From Candidatus Thorarchaeota archaeon (GTDB lineage Archaea; Asgardarchaeota; Thorarchaeia; Thorarchaeales; Thorarchaeaceae), in contig JBHLRQ010000002.1 of the NCBI GenBank assembly GCA_048882385.1, positions 24,799 to 88,798 of the forward strand: a stretch of DNA of 64,000 nucleotides, read 5' to 3'. Each line of letters starts with the position of its first letter. The stretch's first letter is position 1. Below the pieces are notes generated by a model, which did no database searches, was not told the DNA's origin, and worked only from the letters and a program-made list of their open reading frames with translations. The position numbers were made by a program, and so were the translations under genes. Positions 35,037 to 48,356 of the stretch are shown piece after piece.

Positions 35037-35113
35037 GGGCCGATAGATCAGCCTGGCAGATCGTCTGGTTTGCATCCAGAAGGTCGCGAGTTCAAATCTC
35101 GCTCGGTCCACCA
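35037..35113 (+). tRNA. tRNA-Ala (anticodon UGC), intron-less, CCA encoded
   Basis: Acceptor GGGCCGA/TCGGTCC with G3:U70; D arm GATC/GATC; anticodon arm TCTGG-TTTGCAT-CCAGA; T arm GCGAG-TTCAAAT-CTCGC; ACCA end; TTAAAA box at 35001. Confidence 0.97.
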
Positions 35114-42212: not shown

Positions 42213-44261
42213 CTATCTCTTCTTCTTGAGTATCAAAACAACAGCCCCAATTATGACGGCGGCTGAACCAACAATCGTTCCAATGATCAAGATGTCTGGC
42301 AGTCCAGAGGTCACTGTAACCCAGACGGTATTTGTCACGGAATGTCCAGCTATATCCTTGAGGATCAGAGTGAAGTTGTAACTTCCAACATTTAATCCAT
42401 CAACATTATGAACTATGTTCGACCCATTCCAATCCTCAGTTGTACCGACAAACCCGTCATGGATTATAGTGTAGTTTGAATGGTCTCCATCCTCGTCTGT
42501 CACTTCCCAAACAATTTGGTTTCCTGTTGTTCCCTGAATGTATGTGACATCGCTCACTGAGAGTATCCTTGGAGCCAAACCTGATGGCCAATGATAGTCC
42601 ATGGCTCTACTGAGTTCTGTCCGAATTTCGGGATTATCAAAATCAGATACGTAAAATGGTCCGCATGTTGGAACAGGAGCTGAATAACTCCATTCTGCAT
42701 ATCCTAAACCTGTTTCTTCATTATAGATGTGCTCAGGGATGATTTTCTCCTGAAGTATCTGTTGAATGTTGTAAAATGATTCAGTGCTTAATACCACTCT
42801 TGCTCTATACGACGACAATACTTGTGAGGACATGTATTCATTAGGCCATCCGTAATACGAGTGAGAATTTCCGTATGCCCTTGTTTCATTAATATACATG
42901 AAAGTGAAGGCTATGTCTTCAGCAGTGAGAAGTTCTCCATCTGACCAAACAGCATTGTCCTTGATATCAACTGTAATCCATGTCTGTCCCTCTGGAACTG
43001 ATGGATTGGCTGCATGATTCTCGATGAGTATTTCTTTGACTAGGTCCGGATATGCAACATCGTCTGGCCCCATCTTGAATAGACTTGATTGAAGGGTTTC
43101 ACTGACTGCTTTTGAAACATAGTTGTTGGAGGAAAGAAAGTTGTATGTACTAGGTTCAAGCCCAGTAGCAATATTATAGGTCCCTCCGAAAGGACTACCA
43201 GTTCTAGTGTGGACTTTCAAGTTAGTCCAGGGACCCAAAATCCCCCAAAATTTGTCCTCAACATGACCAGTGAGCTCTGCTATCCGATAAGCTTGATAGT
43301 CGATATCCTCGTAGAGAATAATTGATGGTACATTCTCTTGCAGATGCTCTTGTAAGGCTGAGATTGTCTCAAAGACTTCTTCGTAAGTCGTGGCACTATG
43401 AAACTCATCGAACAATGTATCAAACGTGTCATTCTCATACCTGTATTGATTGATATATGCCACATCCGCGTATTGTGACAAATAATCAGACAATATTCTA
43501 TCAGGGTCATCCTCAAAAAATCTCCAATCGTGGATTGCCAAGTCATAATTTGGATCATAGTCTTTTGGATAAACTGAATGAATCCACATAGTACCCTTTT
43601 CAGTAAGAGTTGGAATGTGAAGTGATGCTAATGCATCAGCTACAATCCCTGCGGCTGGATGATCCCAAGACAGAATCGTGAACGAAAAGAAGGTTCCATT
43701 AGGCATCTGTCTCATATTAGTACCAGGATCGACCACAAAACCCAGATTATCTAGAATCTGATTTCCGAGATCTGATTGGTTTGTATAGTAATCATATGGA
43801 AGGTCGTCTTCAATACACCAACTACTTCGCAATGAAAAGACCGAATCATGTCCTATTGCGTGATTACTCCTGGCTTCTGCTACAATCCGAGTTTTGTCAA
43901 TTGCATATGCAATGGCTCTTCTAAATGCACTGATGTTCAGGGGGTACTTTCGGCAGTTGATTGCGAGGCGTCCGTAGCCATTTTCTGGTATTGGGTGTAC
44001 TCCAATATCAGGATCCGCCTCCAAGATGCTTAGGTAAGTTGGATCAATAGGGTCAAGGAGTGCATCGAAGTTTCCAGCCTGTAATGCGAGAATTCTACTA
44101 GCCTCATCAGGTTCTACAGTATATACAACCTTCTCCATATATGAGCCAGAACAAGGATTCTCTGAATCTTCAAGCACTGCATTGATTGTAATAGTGCTGG
44201 AGAATAAAATGATTGCCAAAAAGCAAACTATCACAACGCGAATAGCTGATTTTAAAGCCAT
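42213..44261 (-). CDS. ABC peptide/nickel substrate-binding protein (family 5), membrane-anchored
   Basis: Signal peptide; FRRAIAYAIDK, WSDGELLTAEDIAFTF, CGPFYV motifs; Ig-like stalk; C-terminal TM + KKR. Confidence 0.88.
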   Translation of the reverse strand: MALKSAIRVVIVCFLAIILFSSTITINAVLEDSENPCSGSYMEKVVYTVEPDEASRILALQAGNFDALLDPIDPTYLSILEADPDIGVHPIPENGYGRLAINCRKYPLNISAFRRAIAYAIDKTRIVAEARSNHAIGHDSVFSLRSSWCIEDDLPYDYYTNQSDLGNQILDNLGFVVDPGTNMRQMPNGTFFSFTILSWDHPAAGIVADALASLHIPTLTEKGTMWIHSVYPKDYDPNYDLAIHDWRFFEDDPDRILSDYLSQYADVAYINQYRYENDTFDTLFDEFHSATTYEEVFETISALQEHLQENVPSIILYEDIDYQAYRIAELTGHVEDKFWGILGPWTNLKVHTRTGSPFGGTYNIATGLEPSTYNFLSSNNYVSKAVSETLQSSLFKMGPDDVAYPDLVKEILIENHAANPSVPEGQTWITVDIKDNAVWSDGELLTAEDIAFTFMYINETRAYGNSHSYYGWPNEYMSSQVLSSYRARVVLSTESFYNIQQILQEKIIPEHIYNEETGLGYAEWSYSAPVPTCGPFYVSDFDNPEIRTELSRAMDYHWPSGLAPRILSVSDVTYIQGTTGNQIVWEVTDEDGDHSNYTIIHDGFVGTTEDWNGSNIVHNVDGLNVGSYNFTLILKDIAGHSVTNTVWVTVTSGLPDILIIGTIVGSAAVIIGAVVLILKKKR

Positions 44262-44359
44262 ATCAAAACGCCCCTACGATGTTCCAAACATTTGAGGATA
44301 AATACTTAGTCGTTCCTTGAAACAATTCTCGGCTTGAGAGAATCCTTCTGAAACACGAT

Positions 44360-44698
44360 TCATGATTGTTTTCCATCATCATGTAAAAGGAAGTATCCTG
44401 CTAACACATATTTAGATGCCAAGAATGCTATCTGCCTCTCATCGTCTGTCAAGGGGATTGATTCCACTCCCAGACTTTCCATCTTGGCTTTGAGCTCCTC
44501 TTCATACATCTCCTCAATGTGCTTTCCAGTTTCAGCTTCTAGTCGTTGCATGTCCTCTCTTCGAAGCTTTACTACCCTATCAGAACCTGCAATAAGATAC
44601 AGCATGGATGGGCCAACACCAATTCGTAACAATTCTTTGACCACTCGAGGTCTCTTTCTTCTCGGACCTCTTTGTGAGCTTCTTGCTCTACCTCTCAT
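44360..44698 (-). CDS. Hypothetical protein (112 aa, basic N-terminus)
   Basis: ATG after GGCGAGAGTG; protein-like composition. Confidence 0.55.
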   Translation of the reverse strand: MRGRARSSQRGPRRKRPRVVKELLRIGVGPSMLYLIAGSDRVVKLRREDMQRLEAETGKHIEEMYEEELKAKMESLGVESIPLTDDERQIAFLASKYVLAGYFLLHDDGKQS

Positions 44699-44783
44699 TT
44701 CACTCTCGCCTACTTTTGATGTTTACACAGGTTTCAATGTTTCTGCACAAGTGTAGGTCTACGAATTAAGCGCAATCCACATA

Positions 44784-45401
44784 CTAGGTTTCCTGATCAT
44801 CATCAGTCTTCTTAGTAGCTTTTATCATGCTCGTTTCTAATTTTGATAGACGTAACGAATCTGGATAAATTGATCTTAGAACAAATTCAAAGAAGGCCAT
44901 GAAGATAAGCATGAGGAATATGAAGAGTAGAACAACGCCAACAATTAGACCGGATTGTGGGTCTAGTGCTGGACTAAGGTCCACCCAGAATGGACTAAAG
45001 AAGGCAATTAGCAGATTCCATACGACCATACAAGTTGCTGTTGTAAGGTACCCCGAAACGAGAATTGTGAATCGATATATTCGCTCAAACTTGAGAAATT
45101 GTTCTTTCTCTTCCTCGAATATCCCGATGAATCTATCCACGAAAGGGAGGTACTCATCCCGATACCAATTGATACTGGTTGGGAGTAGAAAAGATAGACC
45201 TGTGAGTGCTATCAAGGTTGGAAGCAACAATCCTATACCCAAATCCCACGATAGGAGATCCCCAGGAAAACTCGAAACTGACACCAATACTCCTGCGAAG
45301 ACATGAGCAATAAACACATAGTCTTGATATCTGTCTCTTTCAGATGGTCTGAGACCAGCCCAATCAATTTCAGGAAGTCCTTCATTTTTTTCCGAGTTCA
45401 A
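44784..45401 (-). CDS. Four-TM membrane protein, unknown function
   Basis: TTG start after GAGGGA; four hydrophobic helices. Confidence 0.7.
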   Translation of the reverse strand: MNSEKNEGLPEIDWAGLRPSERDRYQDYVFIAHVFAGVLVSVSSFPGDLLSWDLGIGLLLPTLIALTGLSFLLPTSINWYRDEYLPFVDRFIGIFEEEKEQFLKFERIYRFTILVSGYLTTATCMVVWNLLIAFFSPFWVDLSPALDPQSGLIVGVVLLFIFLMLIFMAFFEFVLRSIYPDSLRLSKLETSMIKATKKTDDDQET

Positions 45402-45500
45402 TTACAGTCCCTCAGATAGAATTCCCAATACTTTCTAAAAAATCAGTTGATTATCTGACCTATAGAAGATCCATTTTGAGATGAGAAAGAAAGAGAATAT

Positions 45501-45603
45501 GGGCCTGGAGCGAGGGAAAATATAGGGAAAGTAGACTGTTGTTTTCACAACAGCAGGTATTCGCGTGGTTAGGAGGGGAGTTTGAAGCCCTCACACCAGA
45601 CCC
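45501..45603 (-). ncRNA. Putative structured small RNA, copy 1 (103 nt)
   Basis: 5' GGGUCUGGUGUGAGGG pairs with 3' CCCUCGCUCCAGGCCC (15/16, two U-G wobbles). Internal CUGUUGU-GAAA-ACAACAG hairpin. TATA-like GTTTAATATA about 25 nt upstream; U/C tract downstream. Confidence 0.75.
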
Positions 45604-45775
45604 TGAAATTTAATCCCGCGATAGTATATTAAACATTGAGTTAGGGGAAATTAGAAAAATTAAATGTGTTCTAGCTCGGAATGGATGGATTTCTGAAGAC
45701 TTGCATAAGACTTCGACAACATTTTTCAGACTGAGTATCAACTTTTCATCAATTTGGAATGTGGAGTGATTTCCA

Positions 45776-46609
45776 TTGAAGCTCACTCGTGGCGGAATCC
45801 TATTCATTATCATACTCTTCCTCATAGAAGTGTATGTCGTAATTACTCAATGGTCTGCTCCACTCAGTTGGGGCACAGTTCCACTAACTCGTTTGAATGG
45901 AGGAATTTCATATACGATCATGTGGCTTGTATGGCCCTTAGTTGGAAGCATTTTTTTTGCAGTTGTGATGCCTCGCATTCTAGCTCCCCTTTTTCTGAAA
46001 TTGAAAGGAGCTGTCTGGCCTGACTACAAGAATGCCTATGTTGACCTTCCTCCACCCACTCTCAGACAGACAAGTGTTGTACGAAGAGCTATCTATCTCG
46101 GACTGCTTACAATGGGTATTGTTTCCATTCTGATTTACGTCCTTCCTCCCACGCTCTTCCTTCCATCTGGTGAAGTTGAGCCAGGCGAAGTTTCTGTTTT
46201 TCACATGGCCTCAATTGCTAGCATTGCTGGTCTGGTCGTTCCTATTGCTGTAGCAATGTGGTCTACAGGATGGTCATATCGTGATGCTTCACTAGTCCAT
46301 TATAAGATTCCTGATGACGGAGTTGAGGAACTTTATGAGATTGAACCAATCTATCTAAGATTCGACTCTTTTCTGAAGGGATATGCAGGATTCTCTTCAA
46401 TTCTATTCATCATCAATCTTGTAGTTGTTCAATTCAGTACACAAGACCTTGTGATGGCTCTACTTGTTCTCTATGTCTTTATGCACATTTCCTTCCTAAC
46501 GCTGCCAGCCCTCTATGTTCATTCTCAAATGAATCATATGTGGCTTAGAAAGAATCTCCCCAAAGCACGAAGGTTCACTAAATCTGATGTTCAGATTCTT
46601 GAAGAATAA
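45776..46609 (+). CDS. Multi-pass membrane protein (about 6 TM), unknown function
   Basis: Hydrophobic helices; polar motif DASLVHYK...YEIEPI...KGYAG; TTG after GGAGTGA. Confidence 0.75.
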   Translation: MKLTRGGILFIIILFLIEVYVVITQWSAPLSWGTVPLTRLNGGISYTIMWLVWPLVGSIFFAVVMPRILAPLFLKLKGAVWPDYKNAYVDLPPPTLRQTSVVRRAIYLGLLTMGIVSILIYVLPPTLFLPSGEVEPGEVSVFHMASIASIAGLVVPIAVAMWSTGWSYRDASLVHYKIPDDGVEELYEIEPIYLRFDSFLKGYAGFSSILFIINLVVVQFSTQDLVMALLVLYVFMHISFLTLPALYVHSQMNHMWLRKNLPKARRFTKSDVQILEE

Positions 46610-46627
46610 TAGATTGGAAAAGAAGAT

Positions 46628-46724
46628 AGGATCCGATTCGGTGTGTGTAGGTATTCGAAAGTTTCCTTTCGATCGCGTGGTAGGAGGGAGATTGAAGATT
46701 ATAGAAATCGACGAATCGAATCCT
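46628..46724 (-). ncRNA. Putative structured small RNA, copy 2 (97 nt)
   Basis: 5' AGGAUUCGAUUCG pairs with 3' CGAAUCGGAUCCU (13 bp, one U-G). Internal UCGAAAG-GAAA-CUUUCGA hairpin. Shares its loop core with copy 1. GTTTATTAAT about 25 nt upstream; UCUUCUUUU downstream. Confidence 0.75.
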
Positions 46725-46850
46725 TACTTGGCCTCAGATAGCTGATTAATAAACTTATTTTTGCCGGAATATTGCACAAAATTAAATTGAAAATTCGTCA
46801 AAAGCCAGAAAATAGTGTCCACTAATGTGAGGTGTATGCCCCCTCGAGGG

Positions 46851-47222
46851 CTAGTATCCCCACTCCTGCCCAAGCCTCTGACGATACCATCTTTGCCCTT
46901 TCTTGGTGAGTGAGTACTGTCCTTGGAATTCAGACAGTAAACCCATCTCCTCCATGTTGTGTATAACACCAAAGAGCTTGTCGTCTGAGGCACCTGTGAC
47001 CTGTTGGAGTCCAGCGAAGTTCATCTTTCCATTTCTTTTCAGATGTTGAGCAATATCGAATTTTCCGACTGCTCTTGTTTCAGTACGGATTATGATATGT
47101 CCGCAATTTGTACAGAGGAGGTCTCCCTTGTGATCATCTCGGGCAACTTCCCTGCTTCCACAGATTGGGCAGGTCGTCTTTGCAAATCGTAGTGAACGTC
47201 TGTGTGACATGTTTCCGACCAA
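46851..47222 (-). CDS. TFIIB/TFB-type Zn ribbon fused to a winged-helix domain
   Basis: CPICGS...DDHKGDLLCTNCGHII; HTH-wing ..EEMGLL..YSLTKKG. Start may be ATG 47210. Confidence 0.75.
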   Translation of the reverse strand: MVGNMSHRRSLRFAKTTCPICGSREVARDDHKGDLLCTNCGHIIIRTETRAVGKFDIAQHLKRNGKMNFAGLQQVTGASDDKLFGVIHNMEEMGLLSEFQGQYSLTKKGQRWYRQRLGQEWGY

Positions 47223-47277
47223 GTGGAACTCTGAAAGGTACCTTGATAAAACTAACGAAGGAACAAAAGTTCCTTAC

Positions 47278-47781
47278 TCATTTATCATTGACAAGATCTT
47301 TGAAGAATGCTTCATAATCTATCTCAAATGGAACTCGAAGACCTAATCGAACCCTCTTTGCAGTCTTGTCAAGCTCGACATAGCCATGGGTTTGTAGCTC
47401 TCTGAGGTCTTCCAAGACTCCTCGCATACTCTTTTTTCTGAACTCTCTAACCCTGTCATAGGATACCCACCCACCTTCTTGGTATGCAAGTGTTATGACA
47501 ATCAGAAGAGTGGCAGCAAGCTTGTCCGGAAGAGGAGTTTCCTCCTGTTTCAATTTAGTCTGTAATGAAGTGTCCACATAGAAGACGCCACTTACAGGAT
47601 TATGTTTGATCACTAGACCAACGGGTTCTAGCCTACTGTGCAATTCTCCCATTCTTCTGAATAGAATCTCCCGACCAATATCCTCGGGAAGTCCAAGAGC
47701 GTCAAGCATGTCATCTACTCCTGCACCTATGGGATTTCCAGATCTGGTAAGGAGTTTCATGAGAATGGCATACTCGTTCAC
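47278..47781 (-). CDS. Tandem winged-helix kite-type SMC accessory protein (ScpB/Nse1/3-like)
   Basis: WH-A (ELHSRLEPVGLVIK) and WH-B (LAATLLIVITLAY...LRELQTHGYVE); 4 kb from smc/kleisin on the same strand. Confidence 0.65.
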   Translation of the reverse strand: MNEYAILMKLLTRSGNPIGAGVDDMLDALGLPEDIGREILFRRMGELHSRLEPVGLVIKHNPVSGVFYVDTSLQTKLKQEETPLPDKLAATLLIVITLAYQEGGWVSYDRVREFRKKSMRGVLEDLRELQTHGYVELDKTAKRVRLGLRVPFEIDYEAFFKDLVNDK

Positions 47782-47831
47782 AATTGTTTCACCTGAAACT
47801 ACTCTCCTCCAGTATCAAGCATGTATAAACA

Positions 47832-48356
47832 ATGAGGTTTCAAAGAAAGACTCGCGCTAATCCATACTCGTTAATACCCTTCAATTGGAATGGCTGTAGG
47901 AATATGATAGTCGAAATGAACACCCGACTTGAACGCTCAGTGGCTTTCTGTATATGCCTCTTTTTTGCATTGACTTTGATACCACTTTATTCGAATGGGT
48001 TTCATATGTTTGTGATGTTCGTCAGTTTCCAACTAGCCATAGTTCTATTGGGTTGTGAAATTGAGTATATAGTCCTCTGGAGGACTAATGATGATGCAAA
48101 GAAAGGATGGAGAACTCTGAGAAATTATATGATTCTCTTCATAATGGTTTTCTTAATACTGACCCCGGGTGTTCTAGAGTTCTTGATAGGTGTTGATACT
48201 CTGTCTGACCTCTTTAACCCATTATTCTTTGCGTGGTATGTCATCATCGGATGGTTTCAAGGTAAGGTTATTACTAGGCAAACCTACATCCTGAAACCGC
48301 CTTCAGAAATAAAGGGATTTTTGAGAGGTCTGAAGGAGGATAGAAACACAAGCTGA
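47832..48356 (+). CDS. Four-TM membrane protein, unknown function
   Basis: Hydrophobic helices; the true start is probably about 25 codons downstream. Confidence 0.6.
   Translation: MRFQRKTRANPYSLIPFNWNGCRNMIVEMNTRLERSVAFCICLFFALTLIPLYSNGFHMFVMFVSFQLAIVLLGCEIEYIVLWRTNDDAKKGWRTLRNYMILFIMVFLILTPGVLEFLIGVDTLSDLFNPLFFAWYVIIGWFQGKVITRQTYILKPPSEIKGFLRGLKEDRNTS

What the first reader, a model, noticed from the sequence alone, without database searches (positions are those of the whole stretch)
45501..46787. Pair of homologous ~100-nt structured small RNAs with a conserved anti-SD-like loop: candidate new archaeal ncRNA family
Seen: two intergenic minus-strand elements (45501-45603, 46628-46724) flank one membrane gene. 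Each pairs its 5' and 3' ends into a 13-16-bp stem. The stem sequences differ completely, and their U-G wobbles only work on the minus strand. Each has a perfect 7-bp hairpin capped by GAAA, again with different stem sequence. Only the unpaired loop is conserved: CUUCAA(A/U)CUCCC(C)UCCUA(A)CCACGCGA...AUACCU. The GAAA hairpin sits after AUACCU in copy 1 but between CCACGCGA and AUACCU in copy 2. Both have a TATA-like box about 25 nt upstream and a U/C tract right after the stem. Structure kept with sequence changed, plus a conserved loop, is the signature of a functional RNA. Inference: the exposed CCUCCU equals the 16S anti-Shine-Dalgarno core, and many genes here use GGAGG, so these may be trans-acting translational regulators or protein decoys. 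The closing stem with a pyrimidine-rich loop also recalls Y RNAs. I recognise no C/D box, K-turn, tRNA, 5S or SRP features.
Basis: partly seen in the sequence, partly recalled or inferred. Interest (0 to 1): 0.9.

Follow-up and report, generated by a model that had tools for sequence, protein, structure and literature searches.

The report
New intron-bearing small RNA family, Thorarchaeota
The two elements are real genes for a previously undescribed small RNA found across one family of Asgard (Thor) archaea; each holds an unchanging pyrimidine-rich loop on a long stem, some relatives carry a tRNA-type intron inside that loop, and its function is still unknown.

Summary
Both minus-strand elements (45501-45603 and 46628-46724) fold as described. 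No Rfam family reaches its threshold and ARAGORN finds no tRNA. The motif occurs only twice in this 3.7-Mb genome.

They are two paralogues of one RNA family:
- A covariance model finds the family in 59 of 87 genomes of the class. A further 10 genomes carry an interrupted form, which gives 69 of 87 genomes and 15 of 17 genera. All belong to one family, which public record titles call Thorarchaeota.
- Outside that family there are only 2 weak, unstructured hits in 124 genomes.
- All 16 pairs of the closing stem show compensatory changes.
- A TATA box sits at -29..-25 in 65 distinct copies.
- The A+B pair is a duplication specific to this genus. Other genera carry one main copy, which can be as short as 70 nt.

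The new point is that in four genera the invariant loop is split at one site by a 30-63-nt insertion with bulge-helix-bulge (HBh') geometry. This is a candidate splicing-endonuclease intron in a gene that is neither tRNA nor rRNA.

Function is not shown. There is no extended complementarity to 16S, 23S or the genome, no Ro60 gene, and the neighbouring genes are housekeeping genes. My best guess is a trans-acting mimic of the 16S 3' tail (anti-SD), at about 0.4. An unrelated RNP scaffold is at about 0.3.

The parts
45501..45603 (-). sRNA gene, paralogue A (103 nt). It has a closing stem, an invariant loop, a variable hairpin and a second conserved stretch.
   Evidence: Sequence and fold. Model R1 scores it 81.1 bits, E 2.2e-18. 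Orthologues were found in 19 genomes of the genus.
45588..45603 (-). A: 5' strand of the closing stem (GGGUCUGGUGUGAGGG). It pairs with 45501-45516.
   Evidence: Covariation within the genus is (94.3% of cells paired, at most 66% when the partner is slid).
45556..45587 (-). A: conserved single-stranded core CUUCAAACUCCCCUCCUAACCACGCGAAUACC. It contains CCUCCU, the same as the 16S 3' end.
   Evidence: These columns are invariant in alignment A2. The core is shared by 14 genera.
45535..45555 (-). A: variable GAAA-capped hairpin. It is a dispensable insertion that is absent from the 70-nt forms in other genera.
45517..45534 (-). A: second conserved stretch CUACUUUCCCU followed by a U run, directly 5' of the 3' stem strand.
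45625..45633 (-). A: TATA box TTTAATATA, at -30..-22 from the first stem base.
   Evidence: The profile of 65 distinct copies shows 93-100% A/T at -29..-25.
45470..45500 (-). A: pyrimidine/T-rich trailer, the likely termination tract.
46628..46724 (-). sRNA gene, paralogue B (97 nt). It has a 13-bp closing stem, a small 5' hairpin, the core with two one-base deletions, a hairpin and an ACAC-rich linker.
   Evidence: R1 scores it 51 bits, E 2e-10. There are 13 orthologues. Pair counts are (98.2% of cells paired).
46673..46698 (-). B: conserved core UCUUCAAUCUCCCUCCUACCACGCGA.
46655..46672 (-). B: 7-bp GAAA-capped hairpin inserted between GCGA and AUACCUAC of the ancestral core.
46746..46753 (-). 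B: TATA box TTTATTAA, at -29..-22.
46598..46627 (-). B: pyrimidine/T-rich trailer.
45776..46609 (+). Variable cargo between the two RNA genes: a 277-aa multi-pass membrane protein with no Pfam or NCBIfam match. It is not part of the RNA system.
   Evidence: In the direct neighbours G023, G017, G001 and G009, B and A lie 211-217 bp apart with nothing between them.
46851..47222 (-). Conserved upstream neighbour c1: a 123-aa protein with a TFIIB-type zinc ribbon and a possible winged-helix tail. It serves as a synteny anchor. No link to the RNA is shown.

Best explanation
What it is (about 0.95 sure):
- These are two paralogous genes of a previously undescribed small non-coding RNA family, found through one family of Asgard archaea that public record titles call Thorarchaeota.
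- Each gene is its own transcription unit. A BRE/TATA promoter sits about 27 nt upstream, transcription runs on the minus strand, and it ends in a pyrimidine/U tract.
- The 5' and 3' ends pair into a 13-17-bp helix whose sequence drifts freely while pairing is kept.
- That helix clamps an unstructured, G-poor loop of about 40 nt, ..AUCUCCCCUCCUAACCACGCGAAUACCUACUUUCC.., which is nearly invariant across genera.
- Hairpins inside the loop are optional additions.
- In four genera the gene is split inside the loop by a bulge-helix-bulge insertion. I infer that the tRNA-splicing endonuclease removes it and so restores the contiguous loop.

How it works (inferred, about 0.4):
- The loop is the working part, and it acts in trans as a mimic of the 3' tail of 16S rRNA (..AUCACCUCCU).
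- It would bind what that tail binds: the purine-rich Shine-Dalgarno regions of mRNAs, and possibly the factors that recognise the tail. That would compete with the 30S subunit and damp or tune translation initiation.
- The helix would protect the RNA from exonucleases and keep the loop single-stranded.
- The A/B pair in this genus is a recent duplication in which B is diverging.
For: Existence and strand:
- Folds are far better than shuffles on the minus strand.
- No Rfam family reaches threshold and ARAGORN finds no tRNA.
- The motif has only 2 sites in the genome.
- The exact motif is in 26 of 61 relatives. That is 23 of 27 in the genus, and 0 of 24 outside the family.
- Model R1 hits 59 of 87 genomes of the class, in 14 of 17 genera.
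- 10 further genomes carry the split form.
- On 36 distinct sequences from other genera, 16 of 16 stem pairs show double changes and 93.1% of cells pair. 0 of 500 shuffles reach this, and slid partners pair at 53% or less.
- MAFFT alignments within the genus, which were not fitted to a model, give 94.3% and 98.2% paired, with many G-U pairs.
- In 65 distinct copies, A/T is 93-100% at -29..-25, A/T reaches 83-96% at -35/-34 (mostly A in the printed copies), and the trailer is T/C-rich.

Loop as the working part:
- The loop is invariant while the stems vary.
- The 70-nt forms consist of stem plus loop only.

Intron:
- Five copies were found without any intron pattern, and 10 of 87 genomes by pattern.
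- All share one site. The exon bases CCCU pair with (A/G)GGG of the insert, the bulges are CC|A and A(A/C)|U, and a 2-9-bp intron helix lies flush with the bulge.
- This is the HBh' class, which is counted as canonical in bioRxiv 10.64898/2026.10.13.758758 (passages read).
- Random boundaries reach that class in 129 of 20000 trials.

Tail mimicry:
- The 16S genes of three genomes of the genus end in GGAUCACCUCCU.
- GGAGG is found upstream of 6.8% of 2562 crudely called ORFs against 1.4% of controls, peaking at -16..-12.
- Masking of ribosome-binding sites by an archaeal sRNA has a precedent in sRNA41 of Methanosarcina mazei (review PMC5867862, passage read).
Against: - The mechanism is not tested. 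No RNA-seq run could be listed, so even transcription is inferred.
- About 20 bases beyond CCUCCU are invariant (UAACCACGCGAAUACC..). An SD-length pairing does not explain that.
- No extended complement exists in this genome. The longest perfect match is 12 nt at E 3.4.
- The complement of the central 12-mer occurs at 70 places in 87 genomes. 63 of them are the RNA genes themselves and only 7 lie elsewhere. The backwards control gives 51.
- Paralogue B tolerates one-base deletions inside the core.
- An SD mimic would be unspecific, because at least a quarter of crude ORF upstreams carry GGAG or GAGG.
- Three of the four central BHB pairs were imposed by my census pattern. Splicing itself has not been observed.
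Confidence: 0.4

Rival explanations
1. It is an RNP scaffold unrelated to Shine-Dalgarno pairing. The invariant C/U/A-rich loop would be a landing platform for one or more conserved RNA-binding proteins, for example KH-type poly(C)-binding proteins or Sm-like (SmAP) rings on the U run next to the 3' stem strand. The RNA would then work as part of a stable particle or as a protein sponge.
For: - About 20-40 single-stranded bases are invariant across 14 or more genera, with no complementary partner found.
- The loop has only about 2 G, so it cannot fold on itself.
- A run of 4-5 U directly precedes the 3' stem strand.
- The genome has three LSM-domain genes.
Against: - No candidate partner gene is linked to the RNA. 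The conserved neighbours are SMC, a kite-like winged-helix protein, a zinc-ribbon protein, a WD40 protein and an H+-pyrophosphatase.
- I saw no K-turn in the sequence. This was by reading only, with no test.
- No Ro60/TROVE gene was found.
- Which protein would bind is my guess from general knowledge of KH and Sm proteins.
Confidence: 0.3
2. It is a guide or chaperone RNA that pairs with rRNA or tRNA precursors, in the way snoRNAs or U3 do. The invariance of the loop would then mirror an invariant target.
For: Invariant single-stranded stretches flanked by variable helices are typical of guide RNAs. The family is ubiquitous, and outside this genus each genome has one main copy.
Against: - Neither copy has a C box (RUGAUGA) or a D box (CUGA).
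- Loop against 16S plus 300-nt flanks: best duplex -35.4 kcal/mol, against -34.0 +/- 2.5 for 30 shuffled loops.
- The longest Watson-Crick or G-U runs against 16S and 23S of two genomes are 7-14 nt. They lie mostly outside the invariant core, and the G-U runs fall within the range of the 20 shuffles run for one RNA against 23S (11-16 nt).
- The complement of the central 12-mer shows no excess in 87 genomes, 44 of which hold a 16S gene.
Confidence: 0.05
3. It is a DNA-level element rather than an RNA: recombination or attachment sites (attC-like), a MITE, or direct repeats left by the insertion of the membrane gene.
For: - The two copies flank one gene.
- The content between B and A, and after A, varies between species. 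The spacing ranges from 211-217 bp to 7.9 kb.
Against: - There are only 2 copies per genome, at a fixed syntenic place downstream of gene c1.
- The stems of A and B are unrelated in sequence.
- Pairing relies on G-U, which works on one strand only.
- A TATA box lies at a fixed distance.
- Other genera have a single main copy with nothing to flank.
- No integrase or transposase is in the cargo.
- There is no hit in viral contigs.
Confidence: 0.02
4. They are cis-acting parts of plus-strand mRNAs, namely a leader and a terminator of the membrane gene.
For: On the plus strand the elements sit just 5' and 3' of the 277-aa gene.
Against: - Plus-strand folds are weaker (z -1.67 and -2.60).
- The same RNAs occur without that gene in most genomes.
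- The promoter and G-U evidence point to the minus strand.
Confidence: 0.02

Closest known systems
Archaeal trans-acting sRNAs that mask ribosome-binding sites, e.g. sRNA41 of Methanosarcina mazei (Buddeweg et al. 2017, as described in review PMC5867862; passage read)
   Same: It is a small, intergenic, independently transcribed archaeal RNA. An exposed pyrimidine-rich stretch could pair with purine-rich ribosome-binding sites.
   Different: There is no sequence or structure relationship, and none was tested beyond Rfam. In this family the exposed stretch is about 40 nt, invariant across genera and clamped by a terminal helix. No target is known, and the gene can carry an intron.
Y RNAs (Rfam RF00019; features recalled)
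   Same: It is about 100 nt, its 5' and 3' ends form a long closing helix, and it has a pyrimidine-rich internal loop.
   Different: As I recall, Y RNAs conserve the lower stem, which is the Ro60 site, and vary in the loop. Here it is the reverse. No Rfam match appears even at E up to 10. No TROVE gene was found in G000.
BHB-intron-bearing archaeal genes: tRNA and rRNA genes, the Cbf5 pre-mRNA (PMC2738675) and the permuted SRP RNA of Thermoproteus (PMC4731332). For both papers I saw only the listing and the start of the abstract.
   Same: The insertion has a 4-bp central helix, two 3-nt bulges that hold the cut sites, and a flush intron helix (HBh'). Removing it restores a conserved sequence.
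   Different: The host is a new small RNA, not a tRNA, rRNA, mRNA or SRP RNA. The outer exon-exon helix is missing. Splicing is predicted, not observed.
C/D box and H/ACA sRNAs
   Same: They are small archaeal RNAs with conserved single-stranded stretches between helices.
   Different: There are no C or D boxes. I saw no ACA box after the stem and no K-turn when reading the sequence. There is no complementarity to rRNA.

Membership tests
Any Rfam 15 family | Covariance-model score at or above the family's gathering threshold. | tested here: not met
   At gathering thresholds the whole window gives only a tRNA at 35037-35110. The permissive scan of 45350-46900 gave 8 matches, all far below threshold. 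Those overlapping the elements score 12.8-14.3 bits, with E 6.8-8.
tRNA / tRNA-like | Cloverleaf recognised by ARAGORN. | tested here: not met
   ARAGORN finds 0 genes in 44000-48000. A superficial UUCAAAC..ACCA likeness to a tRNA 3' half does not keep tRNA spacing, and the UUCAAA part is not conserved in other genera (my reading).
Y RNA | Conserved Ro60-binding lower stem, and a TROVE (Ro60) protein in the genome. | tested here: not met
   The stem varies at all 16 pairs. TROVE PF05731 gives 0 matches in G000, which is 95.3% complete.
C/D box sRNA | Box C (RUGAUGA) and box D (CUGA). | tested here: not met
   Neither motif is in copy A or copy B.
MITE / repeat element | Many scattered copies with terminal inverted repeats and target-site duplications. 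| tested here: not met
   There are 2 sites in G000. Other genomes have 1-3, at one syntenic place.
BHB (HBh') intron, for the insertions in orthologues | [quoted passage not shown] | tested here: met
   10 of 10 census copies have 4 of 4 pairs. Three of those pairs were imposed by the search pattern. The copies found without that pattern were checked by hand: the G027 B copy in L038, G071, G096, G091 and G068.
BHB (HBh') intron, for the insertions in orthologues | [quoted passage not shown] | tested here: met
   h' is 2-9 contiguous pairs in 10 of 10 copies, and h is 0 in all. Random boundaries reach the class in 129 of 20000 trials. The class definition is from bioRxiv 10.64898/2026.10.13.758758, section 4.8.
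BHB (HBh') intron, for the insertions in orthologues | Actual excision and ligation in the cell. | not testable with these tools
   No RNA run could be listed.
Archaeal RNA polymerase transcription unit | BRE/TATA centred about 26-27 nt upstream of the start. | tested here: met
   A/T is 93-100% at -29..-25 in 65 distinct copies. Window boxes are at 45625-45633 and 46746-46753. The expected distance is from my general knowledge of archaeal promoters.

The most novel reading that the evidence does not exclude
The novel reading is a Thorarchaeota-specific regulatory particle.
- Its RNA displays a stem-clamped copy of the 16S rRNA 3' tail.
- It acts as a global decoy, either for Shine-Dalgarno-led mRNAs or for factors that handle the 16S tail during 30S maturation.
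- Production of the active RNA is gated by tRNA-type (BHB) splicing, because the intron sits inside the mimic and pairs with it in the precursor.
- That would couple the splicing endonuclease to control of translation in a close prokaryotic relative of eukaryotes.
Probability: 0.12. Interest if true: 0.85.

Novelty: new variant of a known kind. Interest (0 to 1): 0.72.

Why it matters
[quoted passage not shown] My two full-text searches found no paper describing small RNAs of Thorarchaeota.
- This family sits at one syntenic site, with one main copy per genome outside this genus. It is found in 69 of 87 genomes of the class and has textbook covariation and a canonical promoter. It is therefore likely to be an important cellular RNA with an unknown job.
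- The invariant loop contains the anti-Shine-Dalgarno sequence. That gives a concrete, testable hypothesis about how translation initiation is controlled in this lineage.
- The BHB-type insertion inside the loop would add a new class of substrate for the archaeal splicing endonuclease, beyond tRNA, rRNA, a few mRNAs and SRP RNA.
- The insertion also explains why covariance-model searches miss the gene in some genera. That is a practical warning for RNA annotation in Asgard genomes.

Tried and rejected
- **Rfam.** The scans at gathering and at E up to 10 gave nothing usable.
- **tRNA.** ARAGORN found none.
- **Bacterial-type signals.** The promoter/terminator scan gave chance-level promoter hits and 0 terminators. 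It is not relevant to archaea.
- **Pairwise alignment.** MAFFT of the two copies misaligned the core. I used motif anchoring instead.
- **rRNA guide idea.**
  - G000 has no 16S.
  - Three genomes reached through named loci gave no 16S or 23S.
  - A 16S primer motif found 16S in 44 of 87 genomes.
  - 16S and 23S of relatives were fetched. No complementarity beyond shuffles was found.
- **Whole-genome complement of the loops.** The longest match was 12 nt at E 3.4.
- **Central 12-mer complement across the class.** There was no excess over the backwards control. I did not inspect the 7 places outside the RNA genes.
- **Expression.** No RNA holder was listed.
- **Homologues outside the family.** There were 2 weak hits in 124 genomes. 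One has a core with two changes and a poor stem, and the other keeps only CCCUCCUAAC. Neither folds better than shuffles (z -0.59 and -0.68). I rejected both as unproven.
- **Exact-motif hits elsewhere.** The exact motif hit 10 bacterial loci and one unplaced archaeal MAG locus (L065). With R1, 4 bacterial loci scored 14.7-21.6 bits; the other 6 and L065 gave nothing. I treat these as chance.
- **Neighbouring genes as partners.** They are housekeeping or uninformative.
- **Hairpins of copies A and B as BHB introns.** By hand I found no central helix or bulges at their boundaries, so I treat them as ordinary insertions.
- **The interrupted B copy in L073.** It has 4 central pairs at one boundary choice but no flanking helix, so I left it unclassified (my reading).
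- **Peptide coding.** I rejected it. The core has no synonymous variation, and the hairpin indels are not multiples of three.
- **Tools.** Supplements of the papers were not seen. Those of bioRxiv 10.64898/2026.10.13.758758 might list non-tRNA intron hosts.
Full report
**1.

Reading the minus strand, copy A (45603 to 45501) is built as follows:
- the stem strand GGGUCUGGUGUGAGGG;
- the loop CUUCAAACUCCCCUCCUAACCACGCGAAUACC;
- a GAAA-capped hairpin;
- CUACUUUCCCUAUAUUUU;
- the stem strand CCCUCGCUCCAGGCCC.

Copy B (46724 to 46628) is built as follows:
- the stem strand AGGAUUCGAUUCG;
- a small hairpin;
- the loop UCUUCAAUCUCCCUCCUACCACGCGA;
- a 7-bp GAAA-capped hairpin;
- AUACCUACACACAC;
- the stem strand CGAAUCGGAUCCU.

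As RNA, the minus strands fold at -35.0 and -26.5 kcal/mol (z -4.66 and -3.78; 0 of 200 shuffles fold as well). The plus strands give z -1.67 and -2.60.

The shared motif occurs twice in the window against 0.00 expected, and only twice in the whole 3.70-Mb, 256-contig genome. The gene between the copies is a multi-pass membrane protein.

**2. It matches no described RNA family**

- Rfam 15 at gathering thresholds finds only a tRNA elsewhere in the window.
- A permissive scan of 45350-46900 gives 8 matches. All are far below their thresholds, and those that touch the elements score 12.8-14.3 bits.
- ARAGORN finds no tRNA.
- Neither copy has C or D boxes.

**3. It is a conserved family**

*Exact motif.*
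- It is present in 26 of 61 related genomes, counting G000. That is 23 of 27 in the genus, 2 of 9 other genera of the family, and 0 of 24 genomes outside the family.
- A scan of one genome per prokaryotic species returned 46 stretches. 36 are in MAGs titled Thorarchaeota, Promethearchaeota or (uncultured) archaeon. 10 are single hits in assorted bacteria.
- With the covariance model, 4 of those 10 bacterial loci score only 14.7-21.6 bits and 6 give nothing. I treat them as chance.
- No viral contig holds the motif.

*Covariance models.*
- Model R1 encodes only the closing stem. It was built from 32 copies of the genus.
- R1 finds the RNA in 59 of 87 genomes of the class, in 14 of 17 genera.
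- R2 was built from 69 copies. On an even sample of the phylum it finds the RNA in 23 of 26 genomes of the family.
- In 124 genomes of other families, R2 gives only 2 weak hits. On inspection they lack a convincing stem and fold no better than shuffles.

*Copy number.* Only this genus has the A+B pair. Other genera have one main copy, and a few have a weak second one.

**4. Structure, strand and transcription signals**

- On 36 distinct sequences from the other genera, all 16 pairs of the closing helix show compensatory changes and 93.1% of cells pair.
  - None of 500 column shuffles reaches any of the five measures.
  - Sliding the partner by 1-3 columns drops pairing to 53% or less.
  - This alignment was fitted to the model, which favours the structure.
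- The MAFFT alignments within the genus were not fitted. They give 94.3% (type A) and 98.2% (type B) paired, against 66% or less and 56% or less when slid. G-U pairs are frequent, and G-U pairs fix the strand.
- Over 65 distinct copies, positions -29 to -25 from the first stem base are 93-100% A/T. Positions -35 and -34 are 83-96% A/T (mostly A in the printed copies), and the first 10-15 bases after the stem are T/C-rich.
  - From general knowledge, this is the layout of an archaeal BRE/TATA promoter and a U-tract terminator.
  - In the window the boxes are at 45625-45633 and 46746-46753.

**5. What is conserved and what is not**

- In three species of another genus the whole RNA is 70 nt. It is an 8-bp-plus stem around AUUCAAAAACAAUCUCCCCUCCUAACCACGCGAAUACCUACUUUCCUUUUG, with no internal hairpin.
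- Across genera the constant part is (A)UCUCCCC(C)UCCUAACCACGCGAAUA, then CCUAC(U/A)..UC and a U run.
In A the hairpin follows AUACCU, and in B it follows GCGA.
- In other species the hairpins vary in sequence, length and loop. One reaches about 55 nt.
- Several genera have instead gained a hairpin 5' of the core. Its purine strand (GGAG..) pairs with a duplicate of the start of the core.
- The loop has about two G and cannot fold on itself.

**6. An intron-like insertion in the core**

*Copies found without any intron pattern.*
- The model turned up B-type copies in which the core is interrupted.
- It also found a copy in genus g33 with a 31-nt insertion.
- Genus g3 had only 4 of 17 hits, so I anchored on the conserved upstream gene c1 in five 'negative' genomes.
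  - In three of them I found the RNA 100-600 nt downstream, split at the same place.
  - The layout is ..CUCCCCUCC[insert]UAACCACGCGAAUACC.., with inserts of 30, 62 and 63 nt.

*Census.* A pattern for this split form finds it in 10 of 87 genomes: g3 8 of 17, g31 1 of 1, g33 1 of 3. None of these 10 had been hit by R1. The union is therefore 69 of 87 genomes and 15 of 17 genera.

*Geometry.* In all 10 copies:
- the four exon bases CCCU pair with (A/G)GGG near the insert's 3' end;
- the cut sites implied by the conserved core fall two bases 3' of each strand of that helix, at CC|A and A(A/C)|U;
- an intron helix of 2-9 pairs abuts the bulge;
- there is no outer exon-exon helix.

*Classification.* This is the HBh' class. 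A recent census of Asgard tRNA introns counts that class as canonical (bioRxiv 10.64898/2026.10.13.758758, passages of sections 1, 2.4 and 4.8 read).

*Controls and caveats.*
- Random boundaries of the same lengths in the same loci reach the class in 129 of 20000 trials.
[quoted passage not shown] The copies found before the pattern existed, meet the geometry by hand check.
- One further interrupted B copy (L073) has its insert 3-4 nt further on and no flanking helix, so I left it unclassified.
- Splicing is inferred, not observed.

**7. Context**

- The ancestral gene order is SMC, a roughly 220-aa protein, an MFS transporter on the other strand, c0, c1, then the RNA or RNAs. A WD40 protein and an H+-pyrophosphatase follow on the other strand.
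  - c0 is about 170 aa. Its language-model features resemble kite and winged-helix proteins.
  - c1 is about 120 aa, with a TFIIB-type zinc ribbon.
- Nothing in this neighbourhood points to an RNA partner. There is no reverse transcriptase, Cas, TnpB or integrase.
- Variable genes have been inserted between B and A, and after A, in different species. In G023, G017, G001 and G009 the two RNAs are 211-217 bp apart. The membrane gene in this window is such cargo.

**8. Function: what was tested**

*(a) A guide for rRNA: not supported.*
- 16S genes of three genomes of the genus end in GGAUCACCUCCU.
- The loop pairs with 16S plus 300-nt flanks no better than 30 shuffled loops do (-35.4 against -34.0 +/- 2.5 kcal/mol).
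- The longest complementary runs to 16S and 23S are 7-14 nt. They lie mostly outside the invariant core, and the G-U runs fall within the range of the 20 shuffles run for one RNA against 23S.

*(b) An extended target elsewhere: not found.*
- The longest perfect match in G000 is 12 nt at E 3.4.
- The complement of the central 12-mer occurs at 70 places in 87 genomes. 63 are the RNA genes themselves and 7 lie elsewhere, against 51 for the backwards control.

*(c) A Y-RNA-like particle: not supported.* No TROVE gene was found, and the conservation pattern is the reverse of the one I recall for Y RNAs.

*(d) Anti-SD mimicry: possible but unproven.*
- CCUCCU is the end of the family's own 16S.
- In most genera the loop reads AUCUCCCCUCCUA, against AUCACCUCCU in 16S.
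- GGAGG is enriched at SD distance upstream of ORFs: 6.8% against 1.4% of controls, peaking at -16..-12.
- An archaeal sRNA that masks ribosome-binding sites has been described (sRNA41; review PMC5867862, passage read).
- Against this, about 20 more loop bases are invariant without any evident pairing reason.

*(e) A protein platform: equally possible.* Three LSM genes exist, and a U run precedes the 3' stem strand.

**9. Verdict**

- These are real RNA genes of a new family that runs through the Thorarchaeota family searched here.
- The most unusual feature is a BHB-type insertion in the invariant loop in several genera.
- The mechanism is open. I put about 0.4 on a 16S-tail/anti-SD mimic acting in trans. 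I put about 0.3 on an unrelated RNP scaffold, and about 0.05 on an rRNA or tRNA guide. DNA-level and cis-acting readings get about 0.02 each.
- My two full-text searches found no paper on small RNAs of Thorarchaeota. I did not see supplements.

Noticed in passing
window 45703-45761 (-) and 45362-45456 (-): There are sub-threshold matches to eukaryotic C/D-box snoRNA models (28.9 bits each, E 0.1 and 0.077). The first has a UGAUGA and a CUGA in the right order and lies in the intergenic space upstream of the membrane gene. It could be an archaeal C/D sRNA or chance.
   Followed up: no
window 44784-46724, and loci L005-L076: The space between RNA B and RNA A, and just after A, is an insertion hot spot. 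Different species carry different cargo there: a membrane protein, a DUF362 protein, an SBP_bac_5 protein, a NosD-like beta-helix protein, a 1766-aa protein, and small paired ORFs. No integrase or transposase was seen.
   Followed up: partly
L161 (G013:C8), L160 (G074:C1), L158 (G073:C113), L015 (G020:C73): Some genomes hold additional divergent copies. One shorter form ends right after ..CUCCCCCUCCUACCACG and carries a roughly 20-nt 5' insertion. A third copy in G013 has the core split by 5 extra bases.
   Followed up: partly
L137 (G014:C153:5055-5135): Paralogue B of one species has lost the CUUCAAUCUCCC part of the core while keeping the stem. Several species of the genus show no B copy at all. 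B may be decaying or changing role.
   Followed up: no
L145-L150 (G012, G017, G005, G001): In these relatives the 16S gene is not followed by a 23S gene within about 6 kb. In G017 the 23S lies about 70 kb from the 16S on the same contig, and in G012 it is on another contig, so the rRNA genes are unlinked. The 16S of G012 is about 60 nt longer and differs near its 3' end, which may be an insertion.
   Followed up: no
G071:C65:2723, G086:C147:3485, G092:C164:922, G017:C205:37926, G032:C4:86561, G030:C3:120160: These are extra exact copies of the central 12-mer or its complement, outside the known RNA loci. Three are in genomes whose main copy carries the intron. They could be second, intron-less copies or chance.
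   Followed up: no
window 46851-47222 (-) and 47278-47781 (-): Two conserved small proteins always precede the RNA. One has a TFIIB-type zinc ribbon with a possible winged-helix tail. The other is a Thorarchaeota-specific 167-aa protein whose language-model features resemble kite, ScpB or MAGE winged-helix proteins. It lies downstream of SMC and may be the missing ScpB-like subunit.
   Followed up: partly
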